This document shows, piece by piece, positions 1 to 19,332 of a stretch of 19,332 bases of DNA. The notes beneath the pieces were generated by a model. The model did not search any database. It saw only the letters and a program-made list of their open reading frames with translations, and was not told the origin of the DNA. Source of the DNA: a virus; the IMG/VR virus record IMGVR_UViG_3300045988_074229, positions 1-19,332 of that record; one strand, 5' to 3'. Each line of letters opens with the position of its first letter. Positions within the stretch are counted from its first letter, which is position 1. A program made the position numbers and the translations under genes.

Positions 1-55
1 TTTACTTGACAGGTAGATGTATTAGTGCTATACTTATAGTAGATAAAACAGAAAG
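1..55. repeat. Left inverted terminal repeat (55 bp)
   Basis: Bases 1..55 (TTTACTTGACAGGTAGATGTATTAGTGCTATACTTATAGTAGATAAAACAGAAAG) are the exact reverse complement of 19278..19332. Identity breaks at position 56. Terminal repeats are typical of protein-primed linear phage genomes. Confidence 0.95.
6..34 (+). promoter_or_regulatory. Early promoter inside the left ITR (TTGACA-17 nt-TATACT)
   Basis: TTGACA at 6..11, 17-nt spacer, TATACT at 29..34. It points into gene 70..468, whose SD (AAAGGAG) lies at 52..58. Confidence 0.75.
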
Positions 56-1628: not shown

Positions 1629-3245
1629 ATGAATACCACGAATAATAAAAAGAACCGCACTGACCGCACATTTTACGCGGCAGTGGCGGACATGACTAAC
1701 GAAAACGCGGAAAGCGTTACACTTAATAGCATTACTTTTAAACGTTGTCTCACTACTACTGCTACGACGTTTGACAGCATCGGCGCATTTTTGAAAGCCT
1801 GGGTTGGTCAAGGGCTTAACGATACAAACACAGTACACACGCTCTTTTTTCCGAATCTCGTTGAGGTCGCTGATACGCTCTTAGCGTACTTTATCGAAAA
1901 CGGTATTAAATACGATAATCAAATCGGTCTTGAGTTTTACGAGTTGCGCTTTTATGTCAACGATTACCGCTTCGAGATTAAAGATTTTAAAAAGGTCTTT
2001 GATGGTGATGTTAACGCTATGCGTGAGACCTTTAAGCTTAGCGGTAGCGACATTGATGTTTTTTGTAAAGCGGTTGAAGAATATTTCGTCGCAGGCAAAT
2101 ACGTTCGCTTTACTAATGCTTCGCAAGCGCTTTATGAATTTAAGCAAATCATGAAACAGCAAGGCTACGCCTTTGATAGTTATTTTCCACAACTTGCGGA
2201 CGATATCGATTCGCTATGTCGTGAAGTAGATAAATCTGGTTGGAATTACGTCGTTCCGAAATACGTTGATAAAGACATTAAAGGCGAGATTAATGTTTTT
2301 GATATTAATAGTATGTATGCCTTTATCCAAAAATCGGCGGTCTTGCCTTATGGTAAACCAGTCGAAATTAATACGGTATGGCCTAAAGCTCCTTTAGAAT
2401 CTCAAGTCTCTTTCGTTTCTTTTGAATGCGAATTTGAATTGAAAGACGGATTCTTTCCATTTGCTAAAACAGTAAACAGCATGTACAGCGATGGACACCT
2501 CACGTATGAAACTAAAGGACGCTCTACGTTTTGCATGACTTGGACTGAGTATCAGCTTTTTCTTAAAAGCTATGACGTCGTAGATTTTGTCTTTTTGAAA
2601 CAGGTGACTTTTGCAGGTGCCAGAGGTTTATTTGATACGTATGTAAATAAATATTACGCTGAAAAACAAGAAGCATCAACTCCTTTTAGTCGACAACATG
2701 CGAAAGCTATGCTCGTTAGTCTTTACGGAAAATTTGGCTCTAAGACTCGTCTTACGAATCGCGATCCACGAATCGACGAAACCACGGGTCGTGTGGTCTA
2801 TGAAAAAGGGCGTGATACGTTCGTAAAAGCGATTTACGCTCCAATGACTGCTGCTATTGCTTCTCTCGCTCGTACATATATTGTATCAGTCGCTCTCATG
2901 CATCGTGATAACTTTGTTTATAGTGATACGGATGCGGTACACTTGACAACTAAAGACGTGAAATTTGAAGTTGATTCAAAAAAACTCGGTGCGTTTGATT
3001 TGGAAGTCTCAGGCGTTCGCTTTAAATACATCCGTCAAAAATGTTACGCGATCGAAAAGACAGACGGTTCTCTCCACGTAAAGGTAGCAGGCATGACGGA
3101 CGCGGTCAAAAAACAGGTGACTTTTGACAATTTCAAGGTAGGTCAAAAATTCGACGGTCTCAAGAAAATGATTGGTCGTCGTGGTGGTATGTCGATTGTC
3201 ACAACTACTTTTGAAATTAAGGCAATTGACGATTTTGACTATTGA
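1629..3245 (+). CDS. Family-B protein-primed DNA polymerase (phi29 gp2-like, 538 aa)
   Basis: Motifs read directly: FDINSMYA (motif A), KAMLVSLYGKFG (motif B), FVYSDTDAVH (motif C, YxDTDS type), IRQKCYAIE and KVAGMTDAVKKQVTFDNFKVG. The last matches phi29 KCAGMTDKIKKEVTFENFKVG, recalled from memory. The N-terminal exonuclease motifs are not recognisable (see findings). Confidence 0.97.
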   Translation: MNTTNNKKNRTDRTFYAAVADMTNENAESVTLNSITFKRCLTTTATTFDSIGAFLKAWVGQGLNDTNTVHTLFFPNLVEVADTLLAYFIENGIKYDNQIGLEFYELRFYVNDYRFEIKDFKKVFDGDVNAMRETFKLSGSDIDVFCKAVEEYFVAGKYVRFTNASQALYEFKQIMKQQGYAFDSYFPQLADDIDSLCREVDKSGWNYVVPKYVDKDIKGEINVFDINSMYAFIQKSAVLPYGKPVEINTVWPKAPLESQVSFVSFECEFELKDGFFPFAKTVNSMYSDGHLTYETKGRSTFCMTWTEYQLFLKSYDVVDFVFLKQVTFAGARGLFDTYVNKYYAEKQEASTPFSRQHAKAMLVSLYGKFGSKTRLTNRDPRIDETTGRVVYEKGRDTFVKAIYAPMTAAIASLARTYIVSVALMHRDNFVYSDTDAVHLTTKDVKFEVDSKKLGAFDLEVSGVRFKYIRQKCYAIEKTDGSLHVKVAGMTDAVKKQVTFDNFKVGQKFDGLKKMIGRRGGMSIVTTTFEIKAIDDFDY

Positions 3246-3270
3246 CAATTTTTTAAAGTTTTGCTATAAT
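3242..3270 (+). promoter_or_regulatory. Consensus sigma-A promoter P1 (TTGACA-17-TATAAT) driving small RNA A
   Basis: TTGACA 3242..3247 overlaps the polymerase TGA stop. The spacer is 17 nt and TATAAT lies at 3265..3270. Confidence 0.75.
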
Positions 3271-3319
3271 GACAATGTGAGGTTAAGTGGTATTACCTCA
3301 CAGAGTATCGCTGAAATCG

Positions 3320-3348
3320 GGGCGTTAGTAGTGCAACGCTCTTTTTTT
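3320..3348 (+). terminator. Intrinsic terminator T1
   Basis: Stem GGGCGUU/AACGCUC (7 bp, one G.U), 8-nt loop AGUAGUGC, then U7 (3342..3348). It would also end the early operon. Confidence 0.75.
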
Positions 3349-3401
3349 GTACTGTTTTTAGTGGTACGCGTTAGAGTTACAGCACTACTCAGCAACGGTC
3401 A

Positions 3402-3429
3402 GGGCGTTTATAAAAACGCTCTTTTTTTT
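3402..3429 (+). terminator. Intrinsic terminator T2
   Basis: Stem GGGCGUUU/AAACGCUC (8 bp, one G.U), loop AUAA, then U8 (3422..3429). Confidence 0.8.
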
Positions 3430-3441
3430 GTATTCTAGCGC

Positions 3442-3470
3442 TTGACGTATTTGCCTTAGTGTGTTATTAT
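3442..3470 (+). promoter_or_regulatory. Promoter PB (TTGACG-17-TATTAT with upstream TGT) driving small RNA B
   Basis: TTGACG 3442..3447 and TATTAT 3465..3470, preceded by TGT. About 35 of 41 positions match the late promoter at 3837..3877 by hand alignment, including the shared GTGTTATTATAATAGTACA. Confidence 0.7.
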
Positions 3471-3477
3471 AATAGTA

Positions 3478-3644
3478 CAGAGATAGGCAAGGTAGAGCGT
3501 CTATCTCACAAAATTACATGAGTCATATTACATGAAGTACCACCTTTCTTATTAAAATCATAAAATCTCCTTTCTTTCTTATTTATCTATACTTTAAGCT
3601 CTACCACTACTACCACTTAGACGAGATGTCTAAGTGGATTTTTT
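3478..3644 (+). ncRNA. Predicted small RNA B (about 165 nt) with a pyrimidine-rich anti-SD-like core; prohead-RNA or regulatory RNA candidate
   Basis: Bounded by PB and terminator TB. The 5' hairpin is GAGAUAG (3480..3486)/CUAUCUC (3501..3507). Its loop GGUAGAGC (3491..3498) is complementary to GCUCUACC (3598..3605). Only 5- and 7-codon ATG ORFs without SD occur on this strand. Confidence 0.55.
3613..3644 (+). terminator. Intrinsic terminator TB
   Basis: Perfect 10-bp stem CCACUUAGAC/GUCUAAGUGG, loop GAGAU, then A + U6 (3639..3644). Confidence 0.85.
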
Positions 3645-3650
3645 ATATAT

Positions 3651-3678
3651 AAAAAAACAGCTTCCGTAAGGAAACTGT
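3651..3678 (-). terminator. Intrinsic terminator TC (minus strand), convergent with TB
   Basis: On the - strand: ACAGUUUCC UUAC GGAAGCUGU, a 9-bp stem with one U.G, followed by a U run (complement of A 3651..3656). On the + strand the same stem has a C/A mismatch and no U run, so it is oriented for - strand transcripts. Confidence 0.75.
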
Positions 3679-3797
3679 CTGAAGAAACTATCCGAGAGCA
3701 ACTGACAAAGCACGTGATTAAGATGCGAAAGCGTCAGGCGCAACTCAATGCGCAATCATCCTGGCGCTATGCGTCAATCACAATCGGTGCTTCTTGT
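3651..3797 (-). ncRNA. Predicted small RNA C (about 140 nt), transcribed divergently from the late promoter
   Basis: Bounded by - strand promoter PC (3804..3832) and - strand terminator TC. Internal helices: 3714..3719 with 3776..3781, 3730..3738 with 3760..3768, and 3739..3742 with 3749..3752. No SD-led ORF. Confidence 0.5.
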
Positions 3798-3803
3798 ATT
3801 ATT

Positions 3804-3832
3804 ATCTTAACACAAGTCTCAAAAAGTGTCAA
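3804..3832 (-). promoter_or_regulatory. Promoter PC (minus strand TTGACA-17-TAAGAT with upstream TGT)
   Basis: Reverse complement of 3827..3832 is TTGACA. The spacer is 17 nt. Reverse complement of 3804..3809 is TAAGAT, preceded by TGT. It shares CTTGACA...CTTGTGTTA with PB and the late promoter. Confidence 0.65.
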
Positions 3833-3837
3833 GCTAC

Positions 3838-3866
3838 TTGACATATTTGTCGTCTTGTGTTATTAT
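3838..3866 (+). promoter_or_regulatory. Late-operon promoter (TTGACA-17-TATTAT with upstream TGT)
   Basis: TTGACA 3838..3843 and TATTAT 3861..3866, followed by SD AAAGGAGG (3886..3892) and the scaffold ATG at 3903. Its -35 box lies back to back with that of PC. Confidence 0.75.
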
Positions 3867-3902
3867 AATAGTACAAATAAATGTAAAGGAGGCTTTTCCA
3901 CA

Positions 3903-4205
3903 ATGGATACAGCTTTTGAAACTAAAGACGCTCTTGAGCTTCTTGACTCACTTCCTGAACGTGTCGGAAACGACGATGAAATCGAATCAATTCTCGCGGA
4001 CTTGATTACATTAAAAGATTTTGTCAGCACGATTGATGAAATCGTGGCAACGTTGAACGAGGATGTCGCAAACCTTAACAAAAAAAACCAGGGTCTTATG
4101 GCATCAAATAACACGCTTTACCGACAAATTGGAAAACAAAACGAAGCAGCTGAAGAAGCTAAAGAAGCAGTCTCAAAAATCGCACAGATTAACGACTTGT
4201 TTTAA
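3903..4205 (+). CDS. Scaffolding protein (phi29 gp7-like, 100 aa)
   Basis: ATG at 3903 follows a strong SD AAAGGAGG. The protein is acidic and coiled-coil. LMASNNTLYRQIGKQNEAAEE resembles phi29 gp7 LIVSNSKLFRQIGLTEKQEE (recalled). The ORF-track start at 3714 would run through the promoter, so I reject it. Confidence 0.85.
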   Translation: MDTAFETKDALELLDSLPERVGNDDEIESILADLITLKDFVSTIDEIVATLNEDVANLNKKNQGLMASNNTLYRQIGKQNEAAEEAKEAVSKIAQINDLF

Positions 4206-4227: not shown

Positions 4228-4461
4228 ATGAATCTACCTAAAATCGACTGGTACGGACGCGACGAGCTAAAAGCCATTTACGCTGACCGTGCTGTAGAAA
4301 CTAACGCACCGACTGACGTTGAACAACCTCTCACAAAACCTGCTGACAGTGTTGCGAACGTTGAACAAAATTATCCAGAACGTGTTGAACGTGCGGACGA
4401 ACTCGAAACAACTGAAGTTAACGAAAATAATCAAATTCCTGTAGAAGAAGGAGAAAAATAA
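4228..4461 (+). CDS. Hypothetical small acidic protein (77 aa) in the head-morphogenesis block
   Basis: SD GAAAGGA lies 9 nt upstream. Its stop overlaps the capsid gene start (TAATG). No family recognised. Confidence 0.75.
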   Translation: MNLPKIDWYGRDELKAIYADRAVETNAPTDVEQPLTKPADSVANVEQNYPERVERADELETTEVNENNQIPVEEGEK

Positions 4462-5558
4462 TGAGTAATAAAATTACACGCTATATGTCCGCTGAAACTG
4501 GACAAAATGTTACTAACATTGACCTTTTGAACGCCATCCGCGAAAAAGCTTCGAACGCTTACCAAGCTGATATTCCAGTTCTTAAAGGTACAATCAACCA
4601 CGCGAACATTCCGACACAACAATTTCAAGTGCATGAAAACGAGTTTTTTGAGCAGTTGATTAACCGTATTGGATCAGTTGTTGTCAAGGCTCTCACTTAC
4701 GAAAACCCACTCGCAATTTTCAAATCTGAAATTTTCGAATTTGGTGACACGCTTGAAGAAATCTACGTAGCACCTGCAGAACGTAATAACTTTAACGCAA
4801 AAGATAACGGTCATCCATTCGCTTTTGCTGATACAGATATTGAAGTGTTCTATCACAAGTTGAATAACGAATATCGTTATGACCGTACGTTCGAGCGCGC
4901 ATGGGTTCAAAAAGCATTTACATCAGATATGGCATTTGATGAATTTATTGACAAGATGTTCACATCACTTATCAGCTCTGACACGCTTGACGAATATGCA
5001 GCAGTTAAACAAGTCCTTAACGACTCACTCGCTGAAGTGACTTACACCGATAACGCAGGTACAGCTCATCAAATTACGGTAGCAGGTACGAAAGTTGATA
5101 CGACTCATAACAATTATATCGAAGAGATGGTAAAAGACATCATCGCGAAATCGAAACAGTTTACGATTCCATCACGCGACAAAGCTCACTCAAACAATCC
5201 AGTTGGTGTACCTAATGCAACGCCACTCGAAGATCAATATCTTATCATCGATGCGGAATACTCGACAGATATTGACCTCATGTTAGCTAACGCTTTTAAC
5301 ATGGATAAAGCTTCAGTCCAAGCTCGTCAAATTGTTGTCGATTTCTTCGACAAATTTACTGGAGCTGGTCAAAATAACGGACGCCGTCCCGTTGCCTTCC
5401 TTGTTTCTAAGAATTCAATTATTCTTAAAGACAAATTGGTACACATGGAAAGTATTCGCAATCCGAAGACAATGTCTTATAACTACTTCTACCATCACCA
5501 CTATTTGACAAGCCTTTCACTCTTTGAAAACATCCACATGTTCTACGTGGAAGACTAA
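4461..5558 (+). CDS. Major capsid protein (phi29 gp8-like, 365 aa)
   Basis: Matches to recalled phi29 gp8: [10 protein letters not shown] vs [32 protein letters not shown] vs [41 protein letters not shown] vs METVRNPRGLYWNYYYHV. Strong SD AAGGAG. A terminator follows. Confidence 0.95.
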   Translation: [365 protein letters not shown]

Positions 5559-5632: not shown

Positions 5633-6670
5633 TTGAATACTGTAAATTATCACAGTTTAAAAGAATATACAAAAACACTTGGACGCATTGACCACAGCAA
5701 AACAACGGTGGATCGTAATCGTACCGCATGGTATAACTTTTACTTTAACTACTTTTATGACATTGTCGTAAACTATTTTAGCTGGTACAACTTGCCAAAC
5801 GACCTCGATGAACTTTTTATAGAGCGTAAGCTTTTAGAAAATGGACACGTTGCATTTTTCGAAGACGAAGAATTAGGTTTTGTGGCACAGGGTGGAACAC
5901 GTGGCCAAGAGCTTAATATCTACGATTACCCTACCACTTATCTGCCTGTGAACGCGGCTCAACAGATGCGCTTTCCGAAAATGCAAATCGCGTACAGTAA
6001 AAGAGATTTTGATCTCTTGCAAAAAATGCACAACGAAACGCGAACCGATAAGCCTTGTATAGTTATTCCTAATAATAATCTCTTCGAACCGTATCTTGAT
6101 TACATTCATCTATATTGCGAAAAGCTGGCAGACATTGAAATGACAATTCAGCTGAATCGAAACGCTCAGGTCACACCGTTCTTTGTTTTAGCTGATGAAA
6201 AATCTGTTTTAAGTTTAAAGAACATTTTTAACAAAATTCAAAGCTTCGAGCCCGTTGTATATGCAAACACACAAAAAAACGCGGCAGGTACCGCGGACTT
6301 CCAACAATTAGACGACCGCATTAAAGTCTTTCGCACGGAAGCACCTTACCTTCTTGACAAGTTACATGACGAAAAGAATCGCGTTATTAATCAGCTTCTC
6401 ACGTTTATTGGAATTAATAACAATCCCGTTGATAAAGCTGAGCGTCTAGTTACTGCTGAAGCAATTTCAAACGCAGGCATTATTTCCGCAAATATTGAAG
6501 TTGGTTGGAAGTCTCGACGAAACGCAGTAAAACGCATTAATGAAGCTTACGGGCTTGATATAGATGTTGAGCCTGCGGAATGGGTACAACGCTTTAACTT
6601 TGCGGACGTTGAAAAAGATTTAAATACCGAAAATCTTGATGATAACGCGGACGGAGGGCTTCAACCATGA
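5633..6670 (+). CDS. Portal / upper collar connector (phi29 gp10-like, 345 aa), TTG start
   Basis: Matches to recalled gp10: [30 protein letters not shown] vs [59 protein letters not shown] vs [44 protein letters not shown] vs KINELYGLNVKVK. SD GAGGA lies 7 nt before the TTG. Confidence 0.93.
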   Translation: [345 protein letters not shown]

Positions 6671-11820: not shown

Positions 11821-14800
11821 TTGGTAAAAGAAACAACAAAAATTAAGCTTTATTCAAAATCGCCATTTCGGAGCGATTACGCGAACGTTATCCATTTTGA
11901 CAATCGCGACGAGATGCAAAAATATTTTGATACCGATTCACCGCATCTAAAGAAAATTTATGAATCTGATAATTTTCAATTTATTTCGCGAACGGGTGAA
12001 ATCTACGTGAGCGGACGTCAGGAACAATTTGAGACAGCGACTTACATGTTTTTTAAAAACGCAGGTAAGGAATATTACGCGTTTGTTTACGACATTGCGT
12101 ATATTAACGAGAACACCACAAAAATTATTTATGAGTTGGATATTTGGAACACTTACCAACCAATGTTATTTAACAAAAACACTCAAGTCAGCGGAACCAT
12201 TGCGCAATATTTACCGTATTTACCGAGCGACGATAAAAACTTTAGAGCACGTCATACAAACACGCAAGGCTTTAACGTCGGAAGTAAAGCTACGGAAGAA
12301 ATTTATGACGTAGGCGCAAACTTAGTGGACTGGCTCGTTATTGTAGCTAAGCCAGAATTTAAATTTAAAGGTGAAGCAGGAACACCCGCGTCAGACATGT
12401 CTTTCTCAGGTACTCAAAAAAGCTTAAAATACTATTTTGTACCCGTCGAAATTGCAGGAAAAATGACGAAACAGTTTGAGCTCGACGGTCAGACCTATCC
12501 ACCAAAGCCAATCGTCACAATTTTGCTCGAGTGCTTCGGTATTACTGTCGGCGGTAAGCATATTAGTCCAACCAAGGACAATACGGCGGACGCGCAAAAC
12601 ATCGCCGCAAATAATATCGTAAATATGTACTACTCACGCTACCTTGGTATCGATTACGATTATGACGGAAGCGTTGTCAAGATTAAAAAAGCGGATGGCG
12701 ATATTTTCAACGTCGTAGGCGTTGGACGCCAATCATCAGCCGCACCTTCAGGCGGTTCGGGGGATCTCGTAACAGTCGGAGGGCCTACGGGAAGCGAGAA
12801 AGAAATCGCTGAACGTATTGCAAAAACTATAAAAGCAAATTATCCACCTGCAACGGTTAACGGAATCGCAGCACTCCTTGGAAACGCTAAACAAGAGTCA
12901 TCAATGGACTATACCATCGACGTTGCGGCAGGGCTTGGGCTTTGGCAATGGACGAGCACACGGGCGCAAGGTTTGCGAAATTATGCACACTCGAAAGGCA
13001 TTTCTGAACACACTATCGAAGCGCAAGTCGGATGGCTCCTTAACGAGCCAGGAGAAAGCGAAACGGCGAAAGCTGTACTTTCAGGAAACGATAGCGCTGG
13101 CAATTTGTCTGACATTTTTGTCACACGTTGGGAGCGCGCAGGTATTCCAGTCGCGGACAAGCGCAGAGCATACGCCGAAAGCTTCGTTCCTGTTGTTAAA
13201 GCTGTAATTAATGACGTAGGCAATAACAGCAACGCAGGAAAAAACGCGGACAATAAAACAACATCAGCGCCAAAACCTGCAGAAGTAACTGAAAAAGTTA
13301 TCGCAAAAGTAAAAGCTATGGCAAATAAAAGCGTAGGTAACGGACAATGTTACGCGCTCTCGTCTTATTATTGTCAGTGTTTCCGAGAGTTGGGCGTTGA
13401 TGCGCCTGGACTCGGTGCAGGCGTCGGAAATCTTTATAAACAAATCGGCGACACTTATAACGCTTACGCAATCGGAAGCGCTTACGACTGGAAATCATGC
13501 GGGTGGGGTGTGAAATTTAATCCATCGGAAGAAGATTTTAAAAACGCCGCGGGCTGTATGATTAACTATAAACCAAACTACGGACCAACGGTGACAGGCG
13601 GTGCAGGGCATACCGGTATTTGTATAAGCTACGATGGACACAGCTTACACACCGTGGAACAAAACTACGGCAACAACGGCTATACTTTGGACCACGTCGT
13701 CACACACGTTCACGCGGATGCTTTGTCTAGTATTGTGATACCACCGGACGTACTCGCAGGCGGAAAGATTAATCCTGACGTTGTTGGAGACGCAAGCGGT
13801 GGAGATGGCTCAGGCGGTGCGAATAGTGCGGCTTATATCGTAAAAATTGTAGAGCATCCAAAAGCAGCGCCTAAATTTATCGAGATTGACGAACTAAAAC
13901 CTAAGATTCTAAAACGTCTCAAAGCGTATATCAAAGACACGTTAGGCGAACGTTTCGTTCACATGGCGAACCAATTGCTTTTAATTTCCGAACTTATTGA
14001 CGTCGAATTGTACGATTATTACGGAAACACGTACGCTTATCAGCTCGAGCTTTTGAACAATCTCCAAACCGAGGACGGTAAGTACTACAATAAATCAGCC
14101 ATAATGCTACTCGGAAGCGTTGGAGACCAAAATTACAATTTTGCGGGGCTCGTTGGATACGGTCACACTCATAATATTGTTGATCAAAATAATAAGACTT
14201 TTAAAATTAAAGCAAAAGCGGACGAGAACATTATATCCAAGTGGGATATTATGCAATACGGAATTTTTGACACAACAGGAAAAAATCTGACAATTCTCGA
14301 CGACGCTACGGCTACGTACATTCAAGGACACGCGGCACAGATTAAAGCGCAACAAGCAAGCTTTAATGAAAACGCAAGCCTCCAAAGACAACAAGCGGAT
14401 ATGAACAATCGTCAGACCTCATTTGCTAACGACAAAAATATTTACGGAGCGAATTTCGCAGTGGATCAAAGCGTCTTCAAGCGCGGAAAAGCTGGAGTCA
14501 TGGCAACAGTAGACGTCGCGACAAATGCGCTCGACATCTTTTCTCCACTTAAAAAAGATGAGACTTATTTGGGTAAGTTTATGTCAACGGCAAGCAACAC
14601 CGCAAAAGCAGGAATGAACGGATACTACAACGTCCAACAGTCGCTCATGGATGTCACAAACGCAAAAGTAAATCGTTCCTTTGCGCAAGATGAAAACGAA
14701 TTACGTAGCCAAAGTACAGCGCTCGCGAACTTGCAAGCAAAAACAGCCATTGACCAACAAATCCGCGCCTTTAACGCGACAATGACAGACTTACAAAATC

Positions 14801-15210
14801 AACCTGATGGCATACAACAAATGGGTAACGATATTAGCTTCCAAACAAGTAATTACCAACAAGGATTATTTATTCGTATTCGTTTTCCATATCCAGAACA
14901 ACTTAAAACAGTTTTGACATATATGCATCTCTACGGTTATATCTATCAAACAGAATCAAACGACGTTTTAAAATATGCATATAATCGCAAAGCGTTTAAC
15001 TATATTAAATTAACAAGCGTGGATGTCAGCGGACTTGAAGCACCGCAAAGCGACTTAGCTATGATTAAAAATATCTTAGCATCAGGCGTGCGAATCTGGG
15101 AAGCGAAATACTTAGATTATACTAAGCCTAAGCCGTTTGACATCTATACGCAAAACCCAAACCGTGCGGACGACCAGGCGGTTCTTGACAGCTATCGAAA
15201 CTTTGATTAA
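11821..15210 (+). CDS. Tail knob protein (phi29 gp9-like) with inserted tail-lysozyme-like and CHAP peptidoglycan-hydrolase domains (1129 aa), TTG start
   Basis: The N-terminus SPFRSDYANVIHFDNRDEMQKYF resembles phi29 gp9 VPFSNDYKNTRWFTSSSNQYNWF (recalled). Gly/Ser linkers lie near 12730..12790 and 13786..13830. The lysozyme-like segment is LLGNAKQESSMDY...GLGLWQWTS...RWERAG. The CHAP segment is GNGQCYALSSYY...GAGHTGICISYDG...VEQN. Confidence 0.85.
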   Translation: MVKETTKIKLYSKSPFRSDYANVIHFDNRDEMQKYFDTDSPHLKKIYESDNFQFISRTGEIYVSGRQEQFETATYMFFKNAGKEYYAFVYDIAYINENTTKIIYELDIWNTYQPMLFNKNTQVSGTIAQYLPYLPSDDKNFRARHTNTQGFNVGSKATEEIYDVGANLVDWLVIVAKPEFKFKGEAGTPASDMSFSGTQKSLKYYFVPVEIAGKMTKQFELDGQTYPPKPIVTILLECFGITVGGKHISPTKDNTADAQNIAANNIVNMYYSRYLGIDYDYDGSVVKIKKADGDIFNVVGVGRQSSAAPSGGSGDLVTVGGPTGSEKEIAERIAKTIKANYPPATVNGIAALLGNAKQESSMDYTIDVAAGLGLWQWTSTRAQGLRNYAHSKGISEHTIEAQVGWLLNEPGESETAKAVLSGNDSAGNLSDIFVTRWERAGIPVADKRRAYAESFVPVVKAVINDVGNNSNAGKNADNKTTSAPKPAEVTEKVIAKVKAMANKSVGNGQCYALSSYYCQCFRELGVDAPGLGAGVGNLYKQIGDTYNAYAIGSAYDWKSCGWGVKFNPSEEDFKNAAGCMINYKPNYGPTVTGGAGHTGICISYDGHSLHTVEQNYGNNGYTLDHVVTHVHADALSSIVIPPDVLAGGKINPDVVGDASGGDGSGGANSAAYIVKIVEHPKAAPKFIEIDELKPKILKRLKAYIKDTLGERFVHMANQLLLISELIDVELYDYYGNTYAYQLELLNNLQTEDGKYYNKSAIMLLGSVGDQNYNFAGLVGYGHTHNIVDQNNKTFKIKAKADENIISKWDIMQYGIFDTTGKNLTILDDATATYIQGHAAQIKAQQASFNENASLQRQQADMNNRQTSFANDKNIYGANFAVDQSVFKRGKAGVMATVDVATNALDIFSPLKKDETYLGKFMSTASNTAKAGMNGYYNVQQSLMDVTNAKVNRSFAQDENELRSQSTALANLQAKTAIDQQIRAFNATMTDLQNQPDGIQQMGNDISFQTSNYQQGLFIRIRFPYPEQLKTVLTYMHLYGYIYQTESNDVLKYAYNRKAFNYIKLTSVDVSGLEAPQSDLAMIKNILASGVRIWEAKYLDYTKPKPFDIYTQNPNRADDQAVLDSYRNFD

Positions 15211-15226
15211 GGAGGTGTAACAATGG

Positions 15227-16306
15227 ATGGAACAACATAAAAAGGAATGGTACAATCCACAGAAAATGCTATCTTATAATCAATTTCTCAACTTTGTTAT
15301 CGGCGGGCGTGATATCGGTAAAACTTTCGCGATGAAAAAATATCTGTTACAACAATTTGTAAAAAATGGTAAACAATCGCTCTATCTGCGACGCAATAAA
15401 ACAGAACTGGACGGCATAGACAAAGAAAGCTTTTTCCCTCGTATTATGCTTGAGCAAATCTTCCCAAACTACGAAGAAGCAGAAGTGAACGTATCGCGAA
15501 CACAAACTAAAATAACTTTTACATCAACGCTCGAAGGTTACGAGGACGGTGAGTTTATCATAACGAGCGGAAAAATCATGCTGAATGGACGCGTTGTTAT
15601 TTACTTAAAATCTCTCAGCACGTGGGTGAATTTAAAAGGTTCAGAGTACGATAACGTTTACTTTATAATGTTCGATGAAGTCTTAATCGACACAAGCTCT
15701 AACAAGCGCTATCTTAAAAACGAAGTAGAAGCTTTTCTAAATCTCTTAATTTCGGTATTTCGACAACGTAAAAACTGTCACGTATACTTGCTCTCAAATG
15801 CTGCGAACATCAACAACCCGTATTTTGCGTATTTTAAATTTTACGAAAACACAGACAGACGCTTTTACAACTTAAAAGACCGCCGTATCCTGATTGAATT
15901 TCCACCTAATCAACCGTTTGACGGTTCATCAGACGACGACATTTACCATCTTATCAAGGATTCAAAGATTTACGATTCGGTGGCAAATAATAAATTTCAA
16001 GTCGGCCGAGGTAAAAATATCGGAAAGCTCAAAGGCGAGAAGACTTATCTTTATTCTCTCTATATAGACGGAGTTACTCTCTCTTGCTACAGTTGTAATG
16101 GCTTAGTATACGTAAAAGTCGGATATGACAAACACCGCAACATTTACAGCGTAGACCCTGCGGAATCTGAAAACGGTCTCATTTACATGGACAGAAGCTC
16201 AGATCTCGCGTGGACTCTCCGACAATGCTATTTAAAAAACTGCATATGGTACGAAAACGCTGAGGCAAAAAACTACATGCTAACGCTTATATCTAAAATC
16301 CTATAA
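15227..16306 (+). CDS. DNA encapsidation ATPase (phi29 gp16-like, 359 aa)
   Basis: WYNPQKMLSYNQFLNFVIGGRDIGKTFAMKK matches recalled gp16 FYNPQKMLSYDRILNFVIGARGIGKSYAMK. Walker A is GGRDIGKT and Walker B is VYFIMFDEV. SD GGAGG is upstream. Confidence 0.95.
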   Translation: MEQHKKEWYNPQKMLSYNQFLNFVIGGRDIGKTFAMKKYLLQQFVKNGKQSLYLRRNKTELDGIDKESFFPRIMLEQIFPNYEEAEVNVSRTQTKITFTSTLEGYEDGEFIITSGKIMLNGRVVIYLKSLSTWVNLKGSEYDNVYFIMFDEVLIDTSSNKRYLKNEVEAFLNLLISVFRQRKNCHVYLLSNAANINNPYFAYFKFYENTDRRFYNLKDRRILIEFPPNQPFDGSSDDDIYHLIKDSKIYDSVANNKFQVGRGKNIGKLKGEKTYLYSLYIDGVTLSCYSCNGLVYVKVGYDKHRNIYSVDPAESENGLIYMDRSSDLAWTLRQCYLKNCIWYENAEAKNYMLTLISKIL

Positions 16307-18041: not shown

Positions 18042-18064
18042 TAGCACAAAGCTTACATAAAAGC

Positions 18065-18095
18065 AAAAAAGAGCCGTAATGGCTCTTTTCTTATT
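18065..18095. terminator. Bidirectional intrinsic terminator between the convergent late and right-early operons
   Basis: Stem AGAGCC/GGCUCU (18070..18075 with 18081..18086), loop GUAAU. It is flanked by A6 upstream and a T-rich tract downstream, so a U run follows the hairpin on both strands. Confidence 0.8.
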
Positions 18096-18162
18096 TTCCG
18101 TATTGTAATACCATTTCAAGCACACCACACGCTAAATCGCGCGCTAGTAGAGTTAGTAGCAT
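18091..18162 (-). CDS. Possible 23-codon hydrophobic micro-ORF (MLLTLLARDLACGVLEMVLQYGK)
   Basis: The ATG (complement of 18160..18162) lies 8 nt downstream of a perfect GGAGGT (complement of 18171..18176). It starts just after the stop of gene 18167..18517 and ends at the terminator. It is below the ORF-track size cutoff. Confidence 0.3.
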   Translation of the reverse strand: MLLTLLARDLACGVLEMVLQYGK

Positions 18163-19244: not shown

Positions 19245-19277
19245 AATAAGTAACCTATAACTAACTTTTGTTAGTTT

Positions 19278-19332
19278 CTTTCTGTTTTATCTACTATAAG
19301 TATAGCACTAATACATCTACCTGTCAAGTAAA
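19278..19332. repeat. Right inverted terminal repeat (55 bp)
   Basis: Exact reverse complement of 1..55, checked base by base. Confidence 0.95.
19299..19327 (-). promoter_or_regulatory. Early promoter inside the right ITR (TTGACA-17-TATACT on the minus strand)
   Basis: Mirror copy of 6..34. It drives the three - strand genes. Confidence 0.75.

What the first reader, a model, noticed from the sequence alone, without database searches (positions are those of the whole stretch)
3284..3637. GTGGTA/TACCAC motif network linking RNA A and RNA B
AGUGGUA occurs twice in RNA A. One copy is in the loop of the 5' hairpin (3286..3292) and the other is at 3360..3366. Its complement UACCAC(U) occurs three times in RNA B, at 3538..3543, 3602..3608 and 3611..3617. 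The hairpin loop UAAGUGGUA (3284..3292) is a 9-nt perfect complement of UACCACUUA (3611..3619). That target is the 5' arm of RNA B's own terminator. The loop also has the same sequence as part of the terminator's 3' arm (UAAGUGG, 3631..3637). RNA B segment 3598..3620 is therefore a hub complementary to four partners: RNA B's own 5' loop (GGUAGAGC), RNA A's T1 loop (AGUAGUG vs CACUACU at 3605..3611), RNA A's hairpin loop, and its own terminator arm. A given hexamer is expected on either strand only about once per 2 kb, so five copies in about 360 bp is unlikely to be chance. Possible roles include hetero-oligomeric RNA assembly, trans anti-termination of RNA B, or a repeated protein-binding site.
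Basis: seen in the sequence. Interest (0 to 1): 0.75.

Follow-up and report, generated by a model that had tools for sequence, protein, structure and literature searches.

The report
Two paired small RNAs beside phage pRNA
The motif cluster sits in two previously undescribed small-RNA genes of an uncultured Cp-1-like streptococcal phage; part of their mutual complementarity is strictly conserved and probably lets the two RNAs pair, but the proposed anti-termination is not supported and the phage's real packaging RNA is a third gene on the opposite strand.

Summary
All coordinates are correct. The window is a complete 19.3-kb Cp-1-like podophage genome. The 650-bp gap between the DNA polymerase and scaffold genes holds three small-RNA genes. 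RNA A and RNA B are on the + strand. RNA C is on the - strand and is the packaging RNA (pRNA), with covarying kissing loops.

Five GTGGTA/TACCAC copies in 354 nt is not significant genome-wide: 32 of 300 shuffled genomes hold an equally extreme hexamer cluster. In 22 distinct related genomes only three copies are conserved. The second AGUGGUA and the terminator-arm copy each survive in 4 of 22. RNA B's terminator stem covaries internally while RNA A's loop never changes. The 9-nt loop/terminator match is therefore window-specific, and trans anti-termination is rejected.

What survives is a conserved core. Three invariant hairpin loops (A 5' loop, A T1 loop, B 5' loop) complement two near-invariant single-stranded segments of RNA B, called here m1 (3536-3549) and the hub (3598-3612). 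Only 2 of 56 core columns vary, against 110 of 313 elsewhere (p = 1.6e-7).

RNA B also carries two modules that read as anti-Shine-Dalgarno plus anti-AUG. My best reading, held with low-to-moderate confidence, is that RNA B is a translation-repressing sRNA whose C-rich segments are bound by RNA A's G-rich loops. No covariation or experiment supports this pairing.

The parts
3242..3270 (+). Promoter of RNA A: TTGACA, 17-nt spacer with TG, TATAAT. It is the only 12/12 consensus match in the genome.
   Evidence: Conserved in relatives with minor changes.
3277..3349 (+). RNA A, short form (about 73 nt): 5' hairpin, 17-nt linker and terminator T1.
   Evidence: Fold at -21.5 kcal/mol, z = -2.3. No gene is called here in public records. 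Indels in relatives break every reading frame.
3277..3301 (+). RNA A 5' hairpin: 7-bp stem and 11-nt loop UAAGUGGUAUU (3284-3294).
   Evidence: The loop is invariant in 22/22 genomes. The stem has one compensatory G3279A + C3299U change in 2 sequences, plus G-U changes; 100% of cells paired. Opening the loop costs 0.6-0.7 kcal/mol.
3319..3349 (+). Terminator T1 of RNA A: 8-bp stem, 8-nt loop AGUAGUGC (3327-3334) and a U7 tail.
   Evidence: Stem and loop are invariant in 22/22. The loop complements hub 3605-3611, and also GCACUACU at 3382-3389 in the read-through form.
3350..3431 (+). Read-through extension of RNA A, ending at terminator T2 (3401-3430). It contains the second AGUGGUA (3360-3366).
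   Evidence: T2 is a paralogue of T1 (alignment score 38 against a shuffle mean of 11). This is the most variable part of RNA A. The second AGUGGUA is present in only 4/22 genomes.
3441..3470 (+). Promoter of RNA B. It belongs to a three-copy promoter family shared with the pRNA and late-operon promoters.
   Evidence: The pattern CTTGAC-N13-TGTGTTAnnATAATAnTACA matches 3 times against 0 expected.
3477..3645 (+). RNA B (about 169 nt): 5' hairpin, about 90 nt predicted unpaired, hub, then an intrinsic terminator.
   Evidence: No conserved ORF: the 7-codon ORF loses its ATG in L093, and the spacer between m1 and m2 carries indels not divisible by three.
3480..3507 (+). RNA B 5' hairpin: stem GAGAUAG/CUAUCUC and 14-nt loop containing GGUAGAGC (3491-3498).
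   Evidence: GGUAGAGC is invariant in 22/22. A3483G is accompanied by U3504C in L093 and L101, read from the alignment. The helix coordinates I gave were off by one, so that helix row is void.
3531..3549 (+). m1: CAUGAAGUACCACCUUUCU. It contains the conserved UACCAC (3538-3543). Its antisense reads as SD + 6 nt + AUG.
   Evidence: 3536-3549 is invariant in 22/22. It is the best RNA B site for the A-hairpin loop in 11 of 13 genomes, at about -10.5 kcal/mol. With opening costs the total is -7.9.
3556..3592 (+). m2: AAUCAUAAAAUCUCCUUUCUUUCUUAUUUAUCUAUAC. Nine nucleotides match the 16S 3' anti-SD sequence as I recall it. The antisense reads as a canonical SD + AUG. It is also complementary to the early-mRNA leader at 40-59.
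   Evidence: 4 of 37 columns vary in 13 genomes. repeat I13 shows 85% complementarity over 20 nt. Duplex with the leader is -22.3 kcal/mol, rank 4 of 7454 windows. Leaders in relatives keep AGAUAAA plus GAAAGGRG.
3598..3612 (+). Hub GCUCUACCACUACUA. It has overlapping complements to the B 5' loop (8 nt, 3598-3605), the A hairpin loop (7 nt, 3602-3608) and the A T1 loop (7 nt, 3605-3611).
   Evidence: 2 of 15 columns vary in 22 genomes. It is the best RNA B site for both the T1 loop and the B 5' loop in 13 of 13 genomes.
3613..3645 (+). Intrinsic terminator of RNA B: 11-bp stem, 3-nt loop and a U tail. In this window its 5' arm carries the third UACCAC.
   Evidence: 6 pairs show compensatory changes and 100% of cells are paired. 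The UACCACUUA version occurs in only 4/22 genomes.
3648..3797 (-). RNA C, the packaging RNA (pRNA) homologue. It has a 5'/3' A-helix with bulges, a three-way junction, CE bulge GAUU (3757-3754), D loop AAUC (3719-3716) and terminator 3680-3655.
   Evidence: Fold z = -4.25. 7 compensatory pairs within the clade. Covariance model R1 finds syntenic copies in Cp-1-group phages, including Cp-1 itself. 43 of 51 pairs are compensatory. The loop-loop helix is 100% paired with three covarying variants.
3795..3833 (-). Promoter of RNA C. It diverges from the late (scaffold/capsid) promoter at 3837-3875.
   Evidence: (repeat I3).

Best explanation
The finding lies in two clade-specific, non-coding small-RNA genes (RNA A and RNA B) of an uncultured Cp-1-like podophage that probably infects streptococci. 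They lie between the DNA polymerase gene and the pRNA gene.

The conserved part of the motif network is base-pairing potential between two kinds of element. One kind is three exposed G/U/A-rich hairpin loops: the RNA A 5' loop, the RNA A T1 loop and the RNA B 5' loop. The other kind is two exposed C/U/A-rich single-stranded segments of RNA B, m1 and the hub.

Inferred mechanism. RNA B is a trans-acting translational repressor. Its long unpaired region carries two modules that are antisense to a Shine-Dalgarno sequence plus AUG. One of them also matches the 5' leader shared by the phage's early mRNAs. RNA A's loops, and RNA B's own 5' loop, bind RNA B's C-rich segments by loop-to-linear contacts. 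RNA A would thus act as a partner or sponge that gates RNA B, rather than affecting RNA B's termination.

Shown: the gene anatomy, the non-coding status, the conservation pattern and the complementarity. Inferred: that the RNAs pair in vivo, what RNA B targets, and the direction of the regulation.
For: Gene anatomy. There are strong sigma-70-type promoters and intrinsic terminators. Hairpin and terminator stems show compensatory changes. No ORF is conserved and no gene is called in any public relative.

Conservation. Core motif columns vary at 2 of 56, against 110 of 313 elsewhere in the RNA A/B span (Fisher p = 1.6e-7). The three loops are invariant or nearly so in 22 genomes.

Complementarity. 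Three loop complements of 7 nt or more occur in 4 of 20000 shuffles. The best RNA B site for each loop is the same in 11-13 of 13 genomes. Loops and targets are predicted accessible, with opening costs of 0.5-2.5 kcal/mol. Net energies are -4.8 to -8.0 kcal/mol.

RNA B as an anti-translation-initiation sRNA. The antisense of m1 reads AGAAAGGUGGUACUUCAUG and that of m2 reads AAGAAAGGAGAUUUUAUG. Three of the four best RNA B duplexes in the whole genome are translation initiation regions, including the early leader. Leader complementarity is retained in divergent leaders. It becomes colinear, 18 of 20, in L248 through a 4-nt deletion.

Literature. The architecture stem-loop / unpaired anti-SD + anti-AUG / terminator is the one described for streptococcal csRNAs (PMC3091779, read).
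Against: There is no covariation between any loop and its proposed partner. Both sides are invariant, which is equally well explained by protein binding or by separate host targets.

All relatives are close (polymerase 89% identical or more), so the evidence has little depth.

Predicted energies are modest, and kissing geometry is not modelled.

Purine-rich loops against pyrimidine-rich segments inflate chance complementarity. About 20% of shuffles give at least one 7-mer match.

The hexamer clustering itself has a family-wise p of about 0.11.

No specific phage or host target was found. The leader match is one of 41 similar-quality inverted repeats in the genome. An exact 18-mer search of 185,579 species genomes gave only chance-level hits, none in a streptococcus.

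There are no expression data.
Confidence: 0.35

Rival explanations
1. RNA A and RNA B are independent sRNAs with no A:B pairing. The conserved loops and C-rich segments are seeds for separate host or phage targets, or protein-binding sites. Their mutual complementarity is then a by-product of SD-like against anti-SD-like composition plus chance.
For: The family-wise test of the hexamer cluster is not significant (32 of 300). About 20% of shuffles give at least one 7-mer loop complement. There is no covariation between partners. Net energies are only -5 to -8 kcal/mol.
Against: All three loops hit one 15-nt segment. This occurred in 4 of 20000 shuffles and never clustered. The partner sites are as strongly conserved as the loops. 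The same best sites recur in all relatives.
Confidence: 0.33
2. Trans anti-termination. RNA A's hairpin loop pairs with the 5' arm of RNA B's terminator and lets RNA polymerase read through.
For: This window has a 9-nt perfect complement, UAAGUGGUA to UACCACUUA. It gives the strongest raw duplex of the loop in RNA B, -12.5 kcal/mol.
Against: The complement is present in only 4 of 22 genomes. The terminator stem evolves by internal compensation while the loop is invariant. Net energy is +2.3 kcal/mol once the terminator has formed. Nothing lies downstream to read into except the convergent pRNA gene.
Confidence: 0.03
3. Hetero-oligomeric structural RNA. A and B assemble through loop-hub contacts into a defined multi-RNA particle, analogous to pRNA rings, for packaging, replication or another early function.
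For: Three loop contacts converge on one hub. The B-loop and T1-loop sites abut at 3598-3605 and 3605-3611. B-loop to hub pairing could also link B molecules head to tail, at -8.0 kcal/mol net. The genes lie next to the pRNA gene, and RNA B shares its promoter type.
Against: The pRNA role is filled by RNA C, which has its own covarying kissing loops. Cp-1-group phages with homologous capsid, connector and ATPase genes lack RNA A and B. RNA A and B show no notable complementarity to RNA C. The overlapping hub sites are largely mutually exclusive.
Confidence: 0.08
4. The loops and hub target or mimic a host RNA. The antisense of the hub, UAGUAGUGGUAGAGC, resembles a tRNA D-arm (AGUGGUAGAGC) as I recall it. 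The RNAs might act as a decoy or bind a host RNA or RNA-binding protein.
For: The three loops display overlapping windows of one 15-mer. This looks like selection for a single sequence. The resemblance to tRNA D-arms rests on memory only.
Against: This was not tested against any streptococcal genome. ARAGORN finds no tRNA here. Hub-pattern matches in viral contigs are at chance level and lie outside tRNA genes.
Confidence: 0.1
5. GTGGTA is a double-stranded DNA binding site for a phage or host protein, arranged as an inverted array around the RNA B promoter.
For: Orientation is + + + then - - -. The pairs 3287/3611 and 3361/3538 are roughly symmetric about position 3452.
Against: One member of each symmetric pair (3361 and 3611) is not conserved (4/22). 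The conserved copies coincide with RNA loops or unpaired segments. Conservation extends over the whole loops rather than the hexamer alone.
Confidence: 0.04

Closest known systems
phi29-family prohead/packaging RNA (pRNA; Rfam RF00044)
   Same: RNA C, next to the finding, matches this architecture. It has a 5'/3' A-helix, a three-way junction and a 4-nt bulge-loop to hairpin-loop complementarity that covaries. It sits in a phage with a phi29-type capsid, connector and gp16 ATPase. RNA A and B share only the idea of loop-mediated RNA-RNA contacts and the genomic neighbourhood.
   Different: RNA A and B have no three-way junction. They are absent from Cp-1-group phages that carry the same motor genes. 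They do not complement RNA C. RNA C itself is not detected by the Rfam model. A Cp-1 pRNA is cited as known in PMC6266182.
Streptococcal csRNAs (CiaR-dependent small RNAs; PMC3091779)
   Same: RNA B has a 5' stem-loop, an unpaired region with anti-Shine-Dalgarno and anti-AUG (CAU) sequences, and an intrinsic terminator, in a probable streptococcal setting. The csRNA paper also reports limited csRNA similarity in streptococcal phages and a csRNA gene on an S. thermophilus plasmid.
   Different: No NTTAAG-N5-TTTAAG CiaR box lies upstream of the -10 element. No Rfam or sequence similarity was found. RNA B has two anti-initiation modules plus the hub, is phage-encoded and has a partner RNA.
sRNA sponge or anti-sRNA pairs, for example RosA with RoxS/FsrA in Bacillus subtilis and prophage AgvB with GcvB in EHEC (from my own knowledge, not checked here)
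   Same: One small RNA carries G-rich exposed motifs that complement the C-rich seed regions of another small RNA. This is the relationship proposed for RNA A and RNA B.
   Different: There is no homology. Pairing has not been demonstrated. Both partners here are adjacent genes on one virulent-type phage genome.
Antisense-RNA-driven transcription attenuation of plasmids pT181, pIP501 and pAMbeta1 (from my own knowledge)
   Same: A small RNA loop contacts a nascent transcript near a terminator and decides whether the terminator forms.
   Different: In this phage the complement to the terminator arm is not conserved. No alternative (anti-terminator) structure or downstream gene exists.

Membership tests
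pRNA (phi29-type packaging RNA), tested for RNA C | Encoded by a phage with a phi29-type capsid, connector (gp10) and gp16 packaging ATPase, and with protein-primed replication | tested here: met
   Pfam hits to Phi29_MCP, Phage_connector, Podovirus_Gp16 and DNA_pol_B_2. 55-bp inverted terminal repeats. Cp-1-type terminal protein family hit in relatives.
pRNA (phi29-type packaging RNA), tested for RNA C | A domain of about 117-120 nt with paired 5' and 3' ends (A-helix) leading to a three-way junction with two hairpin arms | tested here: met
   Fold and consensus structure. 43 of 51 pairs have compensatory changes. 91.9% of cells are paired, against 40-48% in slid controls.
pRNA (phi29-type packaging RNA), tested for RNA C | About 4 nt of complementarity between the bulge (CE) loop and the hairpin (D) loop, able to link molecules into a ring | tested here: met
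   The pairs are GAUU/AAUC, GGUU/AACC and GGUA/UACC. All 54 distinct sequences are paired and 2 of the 4 pairs covary. The sequence data cannot say whether the pairing is inter- or intramolecular.
pRNA (phi29-type packaging RNA), tested for RNA C | Match to the curated Rfam model RF00044 | tested here: not met
   No hit at the gathering threshold or at E <= 10. The literature likewise reports that a pRNA covariance model fails on Cp-1 (PMC6266182).
pRNA (phi29-type packaging RNA), tested for RNA C | Binds proheads and is required for DNA packaging | not testable with these tools
   This needs in vitro packaging or cryo-EM.
pRNA, tested for RNA A and RNA B | Three-way-junction fold, and presence in all relatives that share the packaging motor | tested here: not met
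   The folds are simple hairpin + linker + terminator. Cp-1-group phages have orf6/orf7 protein genes at this position. blastn finds RNA A and B only in the window's clade.
csRNA (CiaR-dependent sRNA), tested for RNA B | [quoted passage not shown] | tested here: met
   m1 is CAU-N6-CCACCUUUCU and m2 is CAU-N5-CUCCUUUCUU, both in the predicted unpaired stretch. The definition comes from PMC3091779.
csRNA (CiaR-dependent sRNA), tested for RNA B | CiaR-dependent promoter with NTTAAG-N5-TTTAAG placed 10 nt upstream of the -10 element | tested here: not met
   Read directly from 3441-3470 and 3242-3270. Both promoters have ordinary TTGAC -35 boxes and no TTAAG repeat.
csRNA (CiaR-dependent sRNA), tested for RNA B | Sequence or covariance-model similarity to known csRNAs | tested here: not met
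   The relaxed Rfam search of 3100-4000 lists only chance-level hits, none to a streptococcal sRNA family.
sRNA-sRNA sponge pair, tested for RNA A with RNA B | Accessible complementary motifs conserved on both partners | tested here: met
sRNA-sRNA sponge pair, tested for RNA A with RNA B | Covariation of the paired positions, or direct evidence of duplex formation | tested here: inconclusive
   Both sides are invariant in 22 genomes. The only hub changes are C3607U (compatible with a G-U pair) and U3608C. The U3608C change weakens two contacts. In L096 it is accompanied by a register-shifted CACUACU.
RNA-mediated trans anti-termination at TB | Conserved complementarity of the effector to the terminator's 5' arm, with co-evolution of the two | tested here: not met
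   4 of 22 genomes carry the match. The terminator arm varies at 7 of 11 columns while the loop varies at 0 of 11. Net energy is unfavourable.

The most novel reading that the evidence does not exclude
RNA A and RNA B form a defined multi-contact RNA complex. Three kissing-type loop contacts converge on one 15-nt hub, and the B loop/hub pair could also link B molecules. If so, this phage carries a second self-assembling RNA system beside pRNA. It would act as a timer that switches off early-gene translation through RNA B's match to the shared early leader.
Probability: 0.1. Interest if true: 0.75.

Novelty: new member of a known kind. Interest (0 to 1): 0.42.

Why it matters
Virulent phi29/Cp-1-type phages have tiny genomes of about 19 kb, and every element in them is presumed essential. 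In this clade about 400 bp are spent on two highly conserved non-coding RNAs, at the position where Cp-1 carries two protein genes.

If RNA B represses translation and RNA A gates it, this would be a compact RNA-only regulatory circuit in a lytic Gram-positive phage. It would be easy to test with synthetic RNAs.

A by-product is more solid than the finding itself. It is a covariation-supported pRNA model for the Cp-1 group, including three covarying variants of the loop-loop contact. Existing Rfam and covariance models miss this RNA.

Tried and rejected
Rfam at the gathering threshold over the whole window, and at E <= 10 over 3100-4000, gave nothing meaningful. ARAGORN found no tRNA or tmRNA.

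blastn of the region against GenBank phages gave no match.

I searched for more distant relatives through the polymerase. The clade is isolated: identity drops from 89% to 31%.

Exact-pattern scans of IMG/VR for the hub and for the A hairpin found only the known clade plus chance hits. These were coding-sequence matches outside tRNA genes.

A scan of the genome collection for a host initiation region matching the m1 antisense gave 15 chance-level hits, none in a streptococcus.

Coding potential was rejected. The GTG-initiated frame through RNA A is broken by indels. The small ORFs in RNA B lack an SD, and one loses its ATG. A 12-codon minus-strand ORF behind the SD-like m2 antisense is broken by 1- and 2-nt indels.

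The idea that the second AGUGGUA is a tandem-duplication remnant was only partly supported. T1 and T2 are paralogous, but the upstream parts are not significantly similar (836 of 2000 shuffles).

RNA A and B show nothing notable in complementarity to the pRNA.

A search for specific phage mRNA targets with duplexfold found that RNA B's top hits are initiation regions, as expected for any CU-rich RNA. No outlier appeared for the loops or the hub.

Resemblances to CRISPR repeat/tracrRNA, T-box and tRNA D-arm sequences were considered from memory. None is supported by Rfam, and none was tested further.

Cofold predicts only a weak 5' end contact because it cannot model loop-loop or pseudoknotted contacts.
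Full report
WHAT THE WINDOW IS

The 19,332-base window is a complete linear phage genome with 55-bp perfect inverted terminal repeats. It encodes a type-B protein-primed DNA polymerase (1629-3245), a phi29-type major capsid protein (4461-5558) and a connector (5633-6670). It also encodes a tail-knob/lysozyme protein, a gp16-type packaging ATPase (15227-16306) and a lysin.

Gene order follows Streptococcus phage Cp-1. The capsid protein is 67-70% identical to those of Cp-1, CP-7 and SOCP. The polymerase is only about 29% identical to Cp-1's, so the replication module is a different lineage.

The 650 bp between the polymerase stop and the scaffold gene (start 3903) contain no conserved ORF. Public gene callers call nothing there in any relative.

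The gap holds three promoter-terminator units:
- RNA A on the + strand. Its promoter (3242-3270) is the only perfect consensus match in the genome. It has terminators T1 (3319-3349) and T2 (3401-3430).
- RNA B on the + strand, with promoter 3441-3470 and terminator 3613-3645.
- RNA C on the - strand, with promoter 3833-3804 and terminator 3680-3655.

CHECK OF THE OBSERVATION

The statistical argument is weaker than claimed. GTGGTA occurs 10 times in the genome against 4.8 expected. Five copies within 354 nt is the most extreme hexamer cluster in this genome (Poisson p = 1.5e-6). However, 32 of 300 shuffled genomes contain a cluster of some hexamer that is at least as extreme. In 189 of 200 shuffles some hexamer reaches five copies in such a span.

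The hub observation holds up better. The three hairpin loops each have a perfect complement of 7-8 nt inside 3598-3612. All three loops finding such a complement anywhere in RNA B 3507-3612 happened in 4 of 20000 shuffles, and never in a cluster. This test was designed after seeing the pattern.

RELATIVES

Searches with the capsid protein and the polymerase recovered the same tight clade from several sources. These were IMG/VR, metagenomes, ENA and Logan assemblies, and one GenBank MAG record, OP073593.1. The clade has polymerase identity of 89% or more. The next relatives are at 31%.

I obtained 22 distinct versions of the polymerase-to-scaffold interval. About 31% of alignment columns vary across the interval. 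That is enough to see which parts are constrained.

Results for the five hexamer copies:
- The RNA A hairpin-loop copy is invariant in 22/22.
- The 3538 copy is invariant in 22/22.
- The 3602 copy is kept in 21/22 (one C-to-U change).
- The second AGUGGUA (3360-3366) is kept in 4/22.
- The copy in the terminator arm (3611-3616) is kept in 4/22.

RNA B's terminator stem changes through internal compensatory substitutions, for example CCACUUAG/CUAAGUGG to CCCCUUAG/CUAAGGGG or CUCCUUAG/CUAAGGAG. Six pairs change on both sides and 100% of cells stay paired. RNA A's loop never changes. The 9-nt perfect complement that drove the anti-termination idea is therefore a peculiarity of this window and three relatives.

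THE PACKAGING RNA IS A THIRD GENE

RNA C folds with z = -4.25. Its 5' and 3' ends form a long bulged helix that leads to a three-way junction. One arm carries an internal bulge loop and the other a hairpin loop. A terminator hairpin follows.

Within the clade 7 pairs show compensatory changes. A covariance model built from the clade finds one syntenic minus-strand copy in each Cp-1-group phage searched. This includes Cp-1 itself (L001 4648-4807, E about 1e-6).

On 54 distinct sequences, 43 of 51 pairs show compensatory change. 91.9% of cells are paired, against 40-48% when partners are slid.

The bulge loop and the hairpin loop are complementary over 4 nt in every sequence, and the pairing covaries. 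It reads GAUU/AAUC in the window's clade and in L012/L014, GGUU/AACC in Cp-1 and most relatives, and GGUA/UACC in L015/L016/L020.

A Cp-1 pRNA is cited as known in the literature, and published pRNA covariance models miss it (PMC6266182). Rfam misses RNA C here too.

RNA A and B show no notable complementarity to RNA C. Cp-1-group phages share the head and motor genes but carry two protein genes (orf6, orf7) where this clade has RNA A and B. RNA A and B are therefore not part of the conserved packaging apparatus.

WHAT RNA A AND RNA B ARE

RNA A begins at about 3277 with a 7-bp hairpin. The stem has one compensatory change and several G-U changes, and is always paired. An invariant 17-nt linker and T1 follow.

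T1's stem and its unusually large 8-nt loop are both invariant in 22 genomes. A read-through form ends at T2, a paralogue of T1. The stretch between T1 and T2 is the most variable part.

RNA B begins at about 3477 with a hairpin. A3483G is compensated by U3504C in two relatives, read. My helix coordinates for this hairpin were off by one, so that row should be ignored.

About 90 nt predicted to be unpaired follow, then the hub and a covarying terminator. Neither RNA has a conserved ORF on either strand.

No homologue exists outside the clade in GenBank phages, IMG/VR or Rfam.

WHAT SURVIVES OF THE NETWORK

The conserved core has five elements:
- the RNA A hairpin loop UAAGUGGUAUU
- the T1 loop AGUAGUGC
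- GGUAGAGC in the RNA B 5' loop
- m1 (3536-3549, AGUACCACCUUUCU)
- the hub (3598-3612, GCUCUACCACUACUA)

Only 2 of these 56 columns vary in 22 genomes, against 110 of 313 elsewhere in the RNA A/B span (Fisher p = 1.6e-7).

The B loop pairs with 3598-3605 (8 bp). The A hairpin loop pairs with 3602-3608 (7 bp), or with m1 (8 bp including one G-U). The T1 loop pairs with 3605-3611 (7 bp).

In 13 genomes the best RNA B site for the T1 loop and for the B loop is always the hub. For the A hairpin loop it is m1 in 11 genomes and the terminator arm only in the window and L082.

With opening costs included, net energies are:

| Contact | Net energy (kcal/mol) |
|---|---|
| B loop : hub | -8.0 |
| A loop : m1 | -7.9 |
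| A loop : hub | -5.4 |
| T1 loop : hub | -4.8 |
| A loop : terminator arm | +2.3 |

Because both sides of every proposed intermolecular pair are invariant, there is no covariation evidence for or against pairing. Conservation could equally reflect protein binding or separate targets.

HOW IT MOST LIKELY WORKS (INFERENCE)

RNA B's unpaired region contains two modules whose antisense reads as a textbook translation initiation region. For m1 the antisense is AGAAAGGUGG-UACUUC-AUG. For m2 it is AAGAAAGGAGA-UUUU-AUG.

m2 contains CUCCUUUCU. As I recall the sequence, this matches the anti-Shine-Dalgarno tail of 16S rRNA.

This is the architecture described for streptococcal csRNAs: stem-loop, then unpaired anti-SD + anti-AUG, then terminator (PMC3091779). 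RNA B fails the csRNA membership test on the CiaR promoter box and on sequence similarity.

m2 also matches the 5' leader of the early transcripts that start in both terminal repeats, UAGAUAAAACAGAAAGGAGA at 40-59. The match is an 8-bp block and a 10-bp block around an internal loop. Divergent leaders in relatives keep both blocks. One relative (L248) has a 4-nt deletion in m2 that makes the match colinear at 18 of 20.

RNA B's promoter belongs to a three-member family shared only with the pRNA and late-operon promoters. The early promoters form a different family. This hints that RNA B is expressed together with the morphogenesis genes.

My best-supported model is that RNA B represses translation, possibly of the phage's own early genes. 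RNA A's G-rich loops would bind its C-rich segments as a partner or sponge. I put this at about 0.35.

The main rival, at about 0.33, is that the two RNAs act independently and their complementarity is compositional. Anti-termination (0.03), a dsDNA protein site (0.04), a structural hetero-oligomer (0.08) and a host-RNA mimic or target (0.10) are less likely.

COMPARISON WITH KNOWN SYSTEMS, AND NOVELTY

RNA C is a member of the pRNA kind by structure and context, although not by the Rfam model.

RNA B works like a csRNA-type anti-initiation sRNA but is not a csRNA. RNA A with RNA B resembles sRNA/sponge pairs known from bacteria and prophages, a comparison that rests on my own knowledge.

RNA A and B have no detectable homologues, so they are new families of a known kind, phage-encoded base-pairing sRNAs. 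Nothing found here requires a new category.

LIMITS

All relatives are close. The host is inferred only from capsid similarity to pneumococcal phages. No host genome was available for target prediction. Loop-loop geometry is not modelled by the energy tools used. No expression data exist.

Noticed in passing
window 3648-3797 (- strand); Cp-1 copy at L001 4648-4807 (-): The pRNA homologue of the Cp-1 phage group. It has a three-way junction, and its 4-nt bulge-loop/hairpin-loop contact covaries as GAUU/AAUC, GGUU/AACC and GGUA/UACC across 54 distinct sequences. Rfam RF00044 does not detect it.
   Followed up: yes
window 3441-3479 (+), 3795-3833 (-), 3837-3875 (+); compare 6-41, 508-543 and 19292-19327: There are two distinct three-member promoter families. 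One drives RNA B, the pRNA and the late operon (CTTGAC-N13-TGTGTTAnnATAATAnTACA). The other drives the three early units (GTGcTATACTTATAGTA). RNA A's perfect-consensus promoter belongs to neither. This suggests temporal classes.
   Followed up: partly
window 3566-3589 against 40-59 (and the right-end copy at 19274-19293): RNA B segment m2 is complementary, in an 8-bp and a 10-bp block, to the 5' leader and Shine-Dalgarno sequence of the early mRNAs that start in both terminal repeats. Relatives with divergent leaders keep both blocks. L248 has a 4-nt deletion in m2 that removes the internal loop.
   Followed up: partly
window 1629-3245 against 4461-5558; L001 3703-4654: The genome is a mosaic. 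The polymerase is about 29% identical to Cp-1's, while the capsid protein is 67-70% identical. RNA A and B occupy the position of Cp-1 orf6 and orf7, two proteins of unknown function (PHROGs 26305 and 22891).
   Followed up: partly
window 3319-3349 and 3401-3430: T1 and T2 are paralogous terminators with the same stem and U tract but different loops. T1 carries the conserved 8-nt loop AGUAGUGC, which also complements GCACUACU at 3382-3389 in the read-through transcript.
   Followed up: partly
window 3598-3612: The antisense of the hub (UAGUAGUGGUAGAGC) resembles a bacterial tRNA D-loop plus 3' D-stem (AGUGGUAGAGC). The three loops each display an overlapping window of this one 15-mer. The tRNA resemblance comes from memory and was not tested against a host genome.
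   Followed up: no
window 1-55 and 19278-19332: The 55-bp perfect inverted terminal repeats each contain an outward-to-inward early promoter. The window is therefore a full-length genome.
   Followed up: yes
window 11821-15210: A 1129-aa protein combines a major-tail-protein N-terminal domain, a tail lysozyme domain and the phi29 gp9 tail-knob C-terminal domain. In phi29 the lysozyme activity and the knob lie on separate proteins (from my own knowledge).
   Followed up: no
window 18054-18102: A bidirectional terminator hairpin separates the rightward late operon (which ends with the lysin gene) from the leftward right-end early genes.
   Followed up: no
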